Under the pieces are notes generated by a model. The model was given only the letters and a program-made list of their open reading frames with translations. It ran no database searches and was not told the origin of the DNA. Source: a virus (Duplodnaviria > Caudoviricetes). Taken from it: a stretch of DNA of 64,000 nucleotides. The position numbers and the translations under genes were made by a program. This document shows, in pieces, positions 21,222 to 21,409 of this stretch (position 1 is the stretch's first letter; each line of letters opens with the position of its first letter). The stretch is taken from positions 64,001-128,000 of the IMG/VR virus record IMGVR_UViG_3300044712_000786; one strand, written 5' to 3'.

Positions 21222-21409
21222 AGCGCGATGGCGGATTCGAACCACCGACCTATGAAGCTTCTGGCCTCATTGCTCTGGGATTTAGGCAAGTTGTTAACGA
21301 CCCACCATTTACCCCATCCCCACTAGTATACAGCGCACGCAAGCCTTATTCTAGAATTATCTCTATTGCACGCCTTAAACCGTCGAATGAACCGCTGAGC
21401 TAATCGCGC
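21222..21409 (-). ncRNA. tRNA-like RNA with 114 nt insertion in the D loop
   Basis: GCGCGAT/ATCGCGC acceptor; TAGCTCAGCGGT [insert 21390-21277] AGAGCA; GGTGG-TTCGAAT-CCGCC T arm; non-canonical anticodon loop. Confidence 0.75.

What the first reader, a model, noticed from the sequence alone, without database searches (positions are those of the whole stretch)
21222..21409. Second tRNA-shaped RNA with a 114 nt insertion in the D loop
GCGCGAT-TA-GCTC-AGCGGT [114 nt] AGAGC-A...AGGTC-GGTGG-TTCGAAT-CCGCC-ATCGCGC. The intact acceptor and T arms imply selection. The insert folds (GCGTGCAA/TTGCGTGC, TAGA-GATAAT-TCTA, GGGAT/ATCCC). The anticodon arm is abnormal: ATGAG/TTCAT closes a 9 nt loop with no U33, so even a spliced product may not decode. 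It lies 6 nt upstream of a normal tRNA-Leu in the same transcript. D-loop introns are known from archaea (BHB type), but no BHB was apparent by eye.
Basis: partly seen in the sequence, partly recalled or inferred. Interest (0 to 1): 0.8.

Follow-up and report, generated by a model that had tools for sequence, protein, structure and literature searches.

The report
Phage tRNA-Val look-alike with D-loop insert
A 203-kb soil phage carries a gene that is a valine-tRNA frame with 114 extra bases in its D-loop and an unreadable anticodon hairpin. It is most likely one more of the tRNA-shaped stable RNAs of unknown role that phages such as T4 and T5 keep beside their tRNA genes.

Summary
On the minus strand, 21409..21222 is a 188-nt tRNA-shaped gene, 6 nt upstream of tRNA-Leu(UAA). 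It has a perfect 7-bp acceptor stem, a D stem, a canonical T arm and every conserved tertiary nucleotide.

New here: removing the 114-nt insert (21390..21277) recreates a 24-nt 5' half found verbatim in at least 120 bacterial genomes. There it belongs to tRNA-Val and tRNA-Lys; the 11 copies with the exact D loop are all tRNA-Val.

The gene departs from those tRNAs in four ways:
- the insert at position 20/21
- a rewritten anticodon hairpin with no U33
- U73 where 104 of 104 bacterial copies have A73
- no encoded CCA, which 16 of the phage's 17 ordinary tRNAs carry

The insert folds no better than shuffled sequence. It has no BHB motif, no Rfam match, and no copies or homologues anywhere searched. 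The phage encodes no splicing endonuclease, RtcB, Rnl2-type RNA ligase or CCA-adding enzyme.

Two further long tRNA-shaped genes in the genome share the design but have unrelated inserts.

Best reading (about 0.45): a non-decoding tRNA-like stable RNA, not an intron-bearing tRNA. A decaying captured tRNA-Val (0.3) and a new intron type (0.13) are not excluded. This scan has flagged similar non-decoding tRNA-shaped phage RNAs on other DNA.

The parts
21222..21409 (-). Whole 188-nt tRNA-shaped gene (called LONG1 in this report); RNA position p = 21409-(p-1)
   Evidence: Sequence. ARAGORN with introns allowed spans exactly these ends. Strict T-arm and acceptor scan.
21403..21409 (-). Acceptor stem 5' strand GCGCGAT (G1-C72, C2-G71, G3-C70 ...)
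   Evidence: Pairs perfectly with 21229..21223. Identical to the acceptor of at least 120 bacterial tRNA-Val and tRNA-Lys genes.
21391..21402 (-). U8 A9, D-stem 5' strand GCTC, D-loop A14 G15 C16 G18 G19 U20
   Evidence: Together with 21276..21272 it gives TAGCTCAGCGGTAGAGC, found verbatim in 11 bacterial tRNA-Val genes.
21277..21390 (-). 114-nt insert at D-loop position 20/21 (boundary ambiguous by one T)
   Evidence: Deletion scan: every top-scoring deletion (119.6) removes this block. Fold z = +0.15. No BHB, no Rfam hit, no second copy in the genome, no homologue found.
21271..21276 (-). A21, D-stem 3' strand GAGC, A26
21252..21270 (-). Anticodon-position hairpin ATGAG-GCCAGAAGC-TTCAT. It can be drawn as 5 bp with a 9-nt loop, 6 bp with loop CCAGAAG, or 7 bp with loop CAGAA. 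There is no U in the loop.
   Evidence: ARAGORN reads it as anticodon AGA with C33. It is unlike the anticodon arms of the matching bacterial tRNA-Val genes.
21230..21251 (-). Variable loop AGGTC (C48) and T arm GGTGG-TTCGAAT-CCGCC
   Evidence: The T loop is canonical, unlike the TGCAAAT-type loops of the phage's main tRNA cluster.
21222..21229 (-). Acceptor 3' strand ATCGCGC and discriminator U73; no CCA follows (GTCTTT)
   Evidence: The discriminator is A in 104 of 104 bacterial tRNAs with this acceptor.
21127..21215 (-). tRNA-Leu(UAA) with encoded CCA, 6 nt downstream in the same transcription unit
   Evidence: ARAGORN; Rfam tRNA 56.1 bits
21410..21678 (-). About 269-nt non-coding leader RNA between the promoter and LONG1
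   Evidence: No ORF. Fold z = -1.83. A 125-nt piece is identical in a related phage of another metagenome. No special complementarity to LONG1.
21685..21712 (-). Sigma-70-type promoter TTGACT-16-TAGATT (TG-extended) heading the RNA operon
56893..57078 (-). Sister gene LONG2 (186 nt). Removing 111 nt between positions 42 and 43 gives a perfect tRNA-Thr(AGU) cloverleaf. It has its own promoter and no CCA.
   Evidence: (z = -3.3)

Best explanation
LONG1 is a non-decoding, tRNA-shaped stable RNA built on a bacterial tRNA-Val frame.

Inferred mechanism:
1. It is transcribed from the promoter at 21712-21685 as the middle of a three-part RNA operon: leader RNA of about 269 nt, then LONG1, then tRNA-Leu(UAA).
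2. Because its acceptor stem, T arm, D stem and elbow nucleotides are all canonical, host RNase P cuts at G1 of LONG1 and at G1 of tRNA-Leu.
3. Host 3' trimming enzymes remove the 6-nt trailer, and the host CCA-adding enzyme may extend the end.
4. The product keeps the L-shaped upper body of a tRNA. The 114 extra nucleotides leave the D loop at 20/21. Positions 20a/20b, just beside it, are (from textbook knowledge, not tested here) a standard site of length variation in tRNA D loops, so the insert would hang off the elbow as an appendage rather than being removed.
5. The anticodon position is a closed hairpin without U33, the discriminator is U rather than the A that ValRS needs, and no CCA is encoded. 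It therefore does not act as a valine adaptor.
6. The tRNA shape instead serves as a handle for processing and stability, or as a mimic for an elbow- or acceptor-binding partner. The appendage carries the unknown specific function.

Shown: the anatomy, the tRNA-Val ancestry, the operon layout, and the absence of any known intron signature or phage splicing enzyme.

Inferred: expression, processing, lack of splicing, and the function.
For: 1. Tertiary-interaction nucleotides and all four stems are intact, including a fully paired hairpin at the anticodon position.
2. The joined 5' half equals real tRNA-Val genes over 24 of 24 nt, and the acceptor 3' strand is identical. Yet the three features needed for decoding or charging are all altered together: the anticodon loop, A73 changed to U73 (0 of 104 bacterial copies have U), and no CCA. 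That pattern fits conversion to another use better than random decay.
3. The design recurs three times in this genome: LONG1, LONG2 and LONG3. Each has a canonical TTCRA T loop, a GG D loop, no CCA, and a 60-114-nt insert at a different site with unrelated sequence. Against this, 16 of the phage's 17 ordinary tRNAs encode CCA, and those of the main cluster have TGCAAAT-type T loops.
4. No known intron type fits: no BHB, no group I or other ribozyme match in Rfam at E up to 10, and 114 nt is below group I size. The phage has no tRNA splicing endonuclease, RtcB or Rnl2-type RNA ligase.
5. There is precedent. T5 annotates six misc_RNAs of 103-172 nt inside its tRNA cluster. By my own folding, RNA1 and rna2 are tRNA-shaped with internal expansions. 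T4 RNAC and RNAD come from its tRNA region and their roles are unknown (PMC3014915).
6. It sits inside a promoter-driven RNA operon, with no promoter or convincing terminator before tRNA-Leu.
Against: - No homologue was found anywhere, so there is no covariation or conservation evidence that the RNA, or its insert, is under selection.
- The insert has no thermodynamic signature of structure, and the free-energy minimum of the whole RNA does not even form the D stem.
- A low-depth contig of a related phage is identical in the leader RNA but diverges just upstream of LONG1. The gene may therefore be dispensable or recently acquired (weak evidence from one 153-nt contig).
- No RNA data exist.
- LONG2, the best-folded sister, becomes a perfect decodable tRNA when its insert is removed. 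That is what an intron would look like.
Confidence: 0.45

Rival explanations
1. Decaying or accidental remnant. The phage captured a canonical bacterial tRNA-Val gene. That gene was then disrupted by an illegitimate 114-nt insertion in the D loop and by rearrangement of the anticodon arm. It is transcribed only because it lies in the operon, and has no function.
For: - The frame is host-like and differs from the phage's own rewired tRNA set.
- The anticodon loop, discriminator and CCA are all unfit for translation.
- The insert folds like random sequence, and its G+C content (0.456) is unremarkable for the genome.
- No homologue is known, and a related phage appears to diverge just upstream of this gene.
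Against: - All 21 stem pairs (23 if the anticodon hairpin is drawn with 7 pairs) and all conserved tertiary nucleotides are intact. The replaced anticodon arm is itself a perfect hairpin.
- Three independent genes with the same set of features occur in one densely packed genome.
- Damage is confined to exactly the decoding and charging determinants.
- The insert has no source elsewhere in the genome.
Confidence: 0.3
2. A new kind of tRNA intron in a bacterial virus, like the 'enigmatic introns' reported in Lak megaphage tRNAs. The 114 nt are removed, by host enzymes or by the RNA itself, to give a tRNA of about 74 nt.
For: - Excision restores a verbatim tRNA-Val 5' half and an ARAGORN score of 119.6.
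- Sister gene LONG2 becomes a flawless tRNA-Thr(AGU) when 111 nt are removed.
- In both, the 5' exon ends in U.
- Oversized phage tRNA genes with unexplained inserts are on record (Devoto et al., bioRxiv 10.1101/356790 and PMC6784885).
Against: - The product would still have a loop without U33, U73 and no CCA, so splicing would not give a normal decoder.
- No BHB motif, no ribozyme family match, and too short for group I.
- The insert ends in C, not G.
- The phage has no endonuclease or ligase for this.
- The three inserts share no sequence and no junction structure. The shared AGATAATT...ACTAGT pair has a chance probability of about 0.05.
Confidence: 0.13
3. A miniature tmRNA-like rescue RNA. 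The tRNA-like ends are charged, and a short reading frame in the insert tags stalled peptides.
For: - The 5' part, ..GG-TTCATTCGACGG, resembles my recollection of the conserved tmRNA 5' motif GGnUUCGACGG. This is a lead from memory, not a tested match.
- A helix GGTTTAAGGC/GCCTAAATCC could close the insert like P2.
- G1-C72, C2-G71, G3-C70 and U73 are, from my own knowledge, the acceptor determinants of bacterial GlyRS.
- ARAGORN at an 80% threshold proposes tmRNA models here.
Against: - No G3:U70.
- D-stem and anticodon-position hairpins are present, which tmRNA lacks.
- ARAGORN at default settings and the Rfam tmRNA models find nothing.
- Candidate tags (for example AIEIILE or ACNRDNSRIRLACAVY, read by eye) lack the usual hydrophobic ...LAA-type end.
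- 188 nt is far below the tmRNA size that I recall.
- No SmpB gene in the phage.
Confidence: 0.03

Closest known systems
Stable tRNA-like RNAs of phage T5 (misc_RNA RNA1, rna2, RNA2H, RNAI, RNAIII, RNAIV in record AY692264)
   Same: These are genes of 103-172 nt interspersed with tRNA genes on the same strand. When I folded them, RNA1 and rna2 showed acceptor and T arms with a canonical GGTTCAA/GGTTCGAA loop plus a large internal expansion.
   Different: There is no sequence similarity to LONG1. The T5 expansions sit in the anticodon and variable region, not in the D loop. The T5 features are annotated in the record as misc_RNA genes, whereas LONG1 is only a prediction.
Phage T4 RNAC and RNAD (species 1 and 2 RNAs of the tRNA region)
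   Same: They are small RNAs transcribed from the phage tRNA region. Their biological roles are unknown (PMC3014915).
   Different: I did not compare the sequences here. That they are tRNA-like is my recollection and was not tested.
'Enigmatic introns' in Lak megaphage tRNAs (Devoto et al. 2019, PMC6784885; bioRxiv 10.1101/356790)
   Same: They are oversized tRNA genes in large phage genomes. Their inserts match no Rfam family and have no known removal mechanism.
   Different: The Lak authors predicted the excision points with the eukaryotic mode of tRNAscan and assigned an isotype and anticodon to each gene. LONG1's insert is in the D loop, and removing it does not give a decodable tRNA.
Bacterial tRNA-Val (and tRNA-Lys CUU) with acceptor GCGCGAU
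   Same: The 24-nt 5' half and the 7-nt 3' acceptor strand are identical. The variable loop and T arm are the same type.
   Different: LONG1 has a 114-nt D-loop insert, a non-anticodon hairpin, and U73 where 104 of 104 have A73. It scores below any reportable Rfam tRNA hit.
Archaeal non-canonical (BHB) tRNA introns, including D-loop positions
   Same: An intervening sequence at a non-anticodon position of a tRNA gene.
   Different: There is no bulge-helix-bulge at the junctions and no splicing endonuclease in the phage. The virus has sigma-70-type promoters and a secreted peptidoglycan hydrolase, which point to a bacterial host.

Membership tests
Canonical decoding tRNA (Rfam RF00005) | Cloverleaf with acceptor, D and T arms and conserved tertiary nucleotides | tested here: met
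   All are present if the 114-nt insert is looped out.
Canonical decoding tRNA (Rfam RF00005) | 7-nt anticodon loop with U33 and a readable anticodon | tested here: not met
   The loop is GCCAGAAGC (or CCAGAAG, or CAGAA) and contains no U.
Canonical decoding tRNA (Rfam RF00005) | Scores at or above the family threshold (29 bits) | tested here: not met
   No tRNA hit over 21222-21409 even at E up to 10. ARAGORN at default settings is silent.
tRNA-Val | A73 discriminator and A35/C36. These are ValRS identity elements from my own knowledge. | tested here: not met
   LONG1 has U73, against A in 104 of 104 bacterial genes with the same acceptor. There is no NAC anticodon in a standard loop.
BHB-type (archaeal or eukaryal) tRNA intron | Two 3-nt bulges separated by a 4-bp helix at the splice sites | tested here: not met
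   An exhaustive search over all junction pairs gave no motif that yields a cloverleaf.
BHB-type (archaeal or eukaryal) tRNA intron | Splicing endonuclease and ligase available | tested here: not met
   The phage has no PF01974, PF01139 or PF09414 match. The host is unknown but appears bacterial.
Group I intron in tRNA | P3-P9 catalytic core, terminal G, and a size of about 200 nt or more (size from my own knowledge) | tested here: not met
   The insert is 114 nt and ends in C. No Rfam intron hit at E up to 10.
tmRNA | G3:U70 alanine identity, tag reading frame, pseudoknots, no anticodon arm | tested here: not met
   It has G3-C70 and an anticodon-position hairpin. Neither ARAGORN at default settings nor Rfam finds a tmRNA.
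Phage tRNA-like stable RNAs (T5 RNA1/rna2, T4 RNAC/RNAD type) | Encoded within a tRNA transcription unit | tested here: met
   It lies between a promoter and tRNA-Leu, 6 nt from the latter.
Phage tRNA-like stable RNAs (T5 RNA1/rna2, T4 RNAC/RNAD type) | tRNA-like acceptor and T arm with an internal expansion and no usable anticodon | tested here: met
   for LONG1; for T5 RNA1 and rna2.
Phage tRNA-like stable RNAs (T5 RNA1/rna2, T4 RNAC/RNAD type) | Accumulates as a stable processed RNA in infected cells | not testable with these tools
   No RNA sequencing run holding this DNA was listed.
Phage tRNA-like stable RNAs (T5 RNA1/rna2, T4 RNAC/RNAD type) | Sequence homology to a described member | tested here: not met
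   blastn against 50,697 phage records gives only generic T-arm matches. This is a functional class, not a homologous family.
Lak-type phage tRNA 'introns' | Removing the insert gives a tRNA with an assignable isotype and anticodon | tested here: inconclusive
   ARAGORN calls Ser(AGA) only by accepting C33 and a 6-bp stem. The frame is Val and the acceptor set is Gly-like. The sister gene LONG2 does meet this feature.

The most novel reading that the evidence does not exclude
The 60-114-nt inserts in the three canonical-elbow tRNA genes of this phage would be a new class of tRNA intervening sequence in a bacterial virus. They would be removed at non-anticodon positions (20/21 and 42/43) without a BHB motif, a group I core or a phage-encoded splicing enzyme. 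The products would be tRNAs with A34 anticodons (AGA, AGU) that supplement a phage tRNA set whose elbows are otherwise rewired (G55).
Probability: 0.12. Interest if true: 0.85.

Novelty: new variant of a known kind. Interest (0 to 1): 0.45.

Why it matters
Phages have long been known to keep tRNA-shaped RNAs of unknown function beside their tRNA genes: T4 RNAC and RNAD, and several T5 RNAs. Nobody knows what these RNAs do.

This example is unusually informative in three ways:
- Its ancestry can be read exactly. It is a bacterial tRNA-Val frame.
- The changes are confined to the decoding and charging determinants, plus one large appendage at the elbow.
- It belongs to a trio that keeps canonical elbows in a genome whose working tRNAs have all changed theirs.

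That contrast suggests the look-alikes are aimed at a partner that recognises the normal tRNA elbow or acceptor end, such as a processing enzyme, a defence nuclease or a synthetase. It also gives a concrete construct to test.

If the inserts turn out to be spliced instead, it would be a new RNA-splicing route in bacteria.

Tried and rejected
Homologue searches that found nothing useful:
- blastn of the operon and of LONG1 and LONG2 against 50,697 phage records gave only generic tRNA pieces.
- IMG/VR pattern scans for a D-loop-interrupted frame gave one false positive, which was tandem tRNAs. The scan for the 3' half gave nothing.
- JGI metagenome scans for the leader RNA and for the 3' half gave nothing.
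- A scan of 185,579 species genomes for the 3' half gave nothing.
- 54 phages related by terminase (about 55% identity) were found. The five longest records have no DNA match, and four of them, read in full, hold no oversized tRNA.
- A syntenic contig found through the neighbouring destabilase-type lysozyme has no tRNA at all.
- The flanking 57-aa ORF has no relatives.
- A second contig of the same phage has the same gene spacing, but its DNA could not be read.

Expression: no RNA holder was listed for this DNA. The holders are rhizosphere and outdoor DNA metagenomes. Contigs laid on the stretch gave no variant and no joint within LONG1. The one loose end of a relative, just upstream of LONG1's 5' end, matches nothing in this genome.

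Ideas rejected:
- BHB intron.
- Known ribozyme or other Rfam family. The only hit was Vault RNA at 11.6 bits, E = 8. It reflects a run resembling the tRNA-like A box and is taken as coincidence.
- Multi-copy mobile element.
- Homology among the three inserts.
- A guide-type pairing between the leader RNA and LONG1: 33% of shuffles pair as well.
- A private promoter for LONG1: TAGAAT lies only 4 nt from G1 and has no -35 box (read by eye).
- Phage-encoded Ro or SmpB partners.
- Archaeal host: the promoters are sigma-70-type and a secreted peptidoglycan hydrolase is present.

Full report
**What is there**

The window is bases 64001-128000 of a 202,704-bp virus record with direct terminal repeats. 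It was recovered from rhizosphere metagenomes. The finding lies on the minus strand, read 21409 to 21222.

Numbering the RNA 1-188:

| Positions | Element |
|---|---|
| 1-7 / 181-187 | Acceptor stem GCGCGAU/AUCGCGC, seven Watson-Crick pairs |
| 8-9 | U8 A9 |
| 10-13 / 135-138 | D stem GCUC/GAGC |
| 14-19 | A14 G15 C16 G18 G19 U20 |
| 20-133 | 114-nt insert |
| 134 | A21 |
| 139 | A26 |
| 140-158 | Hairpin AUGAG-GCCAGAAGC-UUCAU |
| 159-163 | Variable loop AGGUC (C48 can pair with G15) |
| 164-180 | T arm GGUGG-UUCGAAU-CCGCC |
| 188 | U73 |

Six bases (GUCUUU) separate it from tRNA-Leu(UAA), the only tRNA that ARAGORN and Rfam report in the window.

**Is it more than chance?**

Yes.
- A strict scan of the whole genome, both strands, asked for a 5-bp T stem, a TTCRA loop and a 7-bp acceptor within 420 nt. 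It returned ten rows. Five are tRNA-shaped genes: tRNA-Leu, this gene, two further long tRNA-shaped genes and a 71-nt tRNA-like. The other five are chance pairings in AT-rich sequence.
- I deleted every possible block and re-scored with ARAGORN. All top solutions (119.6) remove the D-loop block, and that score beats all but one of the phage's own tRNAs.
- The 24-nt sequence made by joining the two sides of the insert was scanned for in 185,579 species genomes, allowing one to three free bases in the D loop.
- ARAGORN calls those genes tRNA-Val (83) or tRNA-Lys CUU (32). The 11 with exactly the D loop AGCGGUA are all tRNA-Val.

So the gene is a bacterial tRNA-Val frame with an insertion precisely at position 20/21.

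**How it departs from a tRNA-Val**

- The anticodon arm is replaced by a fully paired hairpin whose loop has no U. ARAGORN can only read it as AGA with C33 and a 6-bp stem.
- The discriminator is U, whereas all 104 bacterial genes with this acceptor have A.
- No CCA is encoded, whereas 16 of the phage's 17 ordinary tRNAs, tRNA-Leu included, carry CCA.

**The insert**

However, the insert's minimum free energy (-26.5 kcal/mol) is the same as that of dinucleotide shuffles (z = +0.15). The whole RNA has z = -0.95, and its unconstrained optimum does not form the D stem.
- Its G+C content (0.456) is within the genome's range.
- It has no second copy in the genome.
- It has no Rfam match at E up to 10.
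- It has no bulge-helix-bulge at any junction pair that would leave a cloverleaf.
- It is too short for a group I core and ends in C, not G.
- The phage encodes no tRNA splicing endonuclease, RtcB, Rnl2-type ligase or CCA-adding enzyme. It also has no Ro or SmpB.

**Context**

- A TG-extended promoter (TTGACT-16-TAGATT, 21712-21685) heads a non-coding leader of about 269 nt, then LONG1, then tRNA-Leu. The next promoter (21124-21097) overlaps the end of tRNA-Leu and drives a leaderless ORF.
- The leader folds modestly better than shuffles (z = -1.83). It shows no special complementarity to LONG1.

**Sister genes**

ARAGORN with introns allowed flags two more long genes.
- LONG2 (window 57078..56893) has its own promoter, TTGCUU-16-TAGAAU-N7, and folds spontaneously into a cloverleaf with a large extra domain (z = -3.3). 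It becomes a flawless tRNA-Thr(AGU) if 111 nt between positions 42 and 43 are removed.
- LONG3 (genome 142731..142578) has a G3:U70 pair with A73, plus a variable-arm hairpin.
- All three have canonical TTCRA T loops and GG D loops, and all lack CCA. The phage's main tRNA cluster instead has TGCAAAT-type T loops (G at position 55), unusual D loops and, in all but one gene, encoded CCA.
- The three inserts share no significant similarity. The motif pair AGATAATT...ACTAGT shared by LONG1 and LONG2 has a chance probability of about 0.05 by my estimate.

**Homologues**

None were found, so selection cannot be tested by covariation.
- Phage records gave only generic tRNA pieces.
- IMG/VR pattern scans gave nothing usable.
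- Metagenome contigs gave nothing.
- Related phages at about 55% terminase identity gave nothing.
- A syntenic contig found through the neighbouring lysozyme has no tRNAs.
- The flanking small ORF has no relatives.
- One low-depth contig of a close relative is identical over 125 nt of the leader, then diverges just upstream of the start of LONG1. The divergent sequence matches nothing in this genome. This hints that the locus varies, but it is one 153-nt contig.
- No RNA run holding this DNA was listed.

**Interpretation**

The best-supported reading is a non-decoding tRNA-like stable RNA. It keeps everything that tRNA-processing enzymes and elbow or acceptor binders recognise. It has lost exactly what decoding and valylation need. 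It carries its extra 114 nt next to the D-loop positions (20a/20b) where, from textbook knowledge, tRNAs naturally vary in length.

It would be released from the operon by RNase P and 3' trimming, as its neighbour tRNA-Leu is. These processing steps, and the absence of splicing, are inferred and not shown.

The class has precedent:
- The T5 st0 record annotates six misc_RNAs of 103-172 nt inside its tRNA cluster. RNA1 and rna2 fold as tRNA frames with internal expansions.
- T4 RNAC and RNAD come from its tRNA region and have unknown roles (PMC3014915).
- Earlier notes of this scan report similar non-decoding tRNA-shaped RNAs in other phages, one with a D-loop arm. Those are unchecked leads, apart from the T5 annotation, which I verified.

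**Rivals**

- A captured tRNA-Val that is simply broken (0.3) explains the random-looking insert and the lack of relatives. It does not explain the flawless stems, the paired replacement hairpin, or the threefold recurrence of the design.
- A new intron type (0.13), comparable to the 'enigmatic introns' of Lak megaphage tRNAs, is favoured by LONG2. For LONG1 it is disfavoured because the joined product still could not decode, and no splicing signature or enzyme is present.
- A mini-tmRNA (0.03) is nearly excluded.

**Verdict**

This is a real, well-defined tRNA-derived gene. It is a new variant (D-loop expansion on a tRNA-Val frame) of a known but unexplained kind of phage RNA. Its function is unknown and its expression is untested.

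Noticed in passing
genome 132-151 kb (outside the window; G000:C1:132837-150870): In the main cluster, the phage's ordinary tRNAs mostly have T loops of the type TGCAAAT (G at position 55) and D loops without the usual GG. All but one encode CCA, usually followed by a T-rich trailer (ATTT or TTTT). With ARAGORN thresholds lowered to 85%, about 34 candidates appear. tRNA-Leu(UAA) and the three long genes are the only ones with canonical elbows.
   Followed up: partly
window 56893-57078 (-): LONG2 is a 186-nt tRNA-shaped gene with its own promoter (TTGCTT-16-TAGAAT-N7). 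Its fold has z = -3.3. Removing 111 nt between positions 42 and 43 gives a perfect tRNA-Thr with the rare A34 anticodon AGU. An ATG lies 18 nt after its end, so it may also act as a processed 5' leader.
   Followed up: partly
G000:C1:142578-142731 (-): LONG3 is a 154-nt tRNA-shaped gene in the main tRNA cluster. It has G3:U70 and A73 (alanine-type acceptor), a canonical TTCAAAC T loop, a variable-arm hairpin, an expansion of about 60-80 nt at the anticodon position, and no CCA.
   Followed up: partly
G000:C1:135432-135506 (-): A 75-nt tRNA-like gene with encoded CCA. ARAGORN misses it at default settings and calls it Met(CAT) at 94.3 only with lowered thresholds.
   Followed up: no
window 21410-21678 (-): A non-coding leader RNA of about 269 nt heads the operon. 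It has a long perfect 13-bp hairpin and a C-UUCG-G hairpin, with fold z = -1.83. A 125-nt piece is 100% identical in a related phage whose flanking genes are only 82-98% identical. It has no Rfam match.
   Followed up: partly
window 21097-21124 (-): The promoter TTGACA-16-TAGTAT starts inside the last bases of tRNA-Leu (ACCAtcTTGACA). It places the transcription start at or next to the ATG of the 69-aa ORF (21090), which would make the mRNA leaderless.
   Followed up: no
window 21381-21402 (-): The run UUAGCUCAGCGGUUCAUUCGAC matches about 20 of 22 positions of the Rfam vault RNA consensus around its tRNA-like A box (11.6 bits, E = 8). I take this as coincidence.
   Followed up: no
window 21299-21322 (-): A G-rich run, GUGGGGAUGGGGUAAAUGGUGGGU, lies inside the insert of an otherwise AT-rich genome. 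On paper it fits a two-tier G-quadruplex pattern.
   Followed up: no
window 20492-20884 (-): The neighbouring gene is a destabilase-type (i-type) lysozyme (PF05497) with an N-terminal signal-like segment. Its relatives (48-66% identity) sit on phage-like contigs, one of them syntenic with an ArdC-like gene as here.
   Followed up: partly
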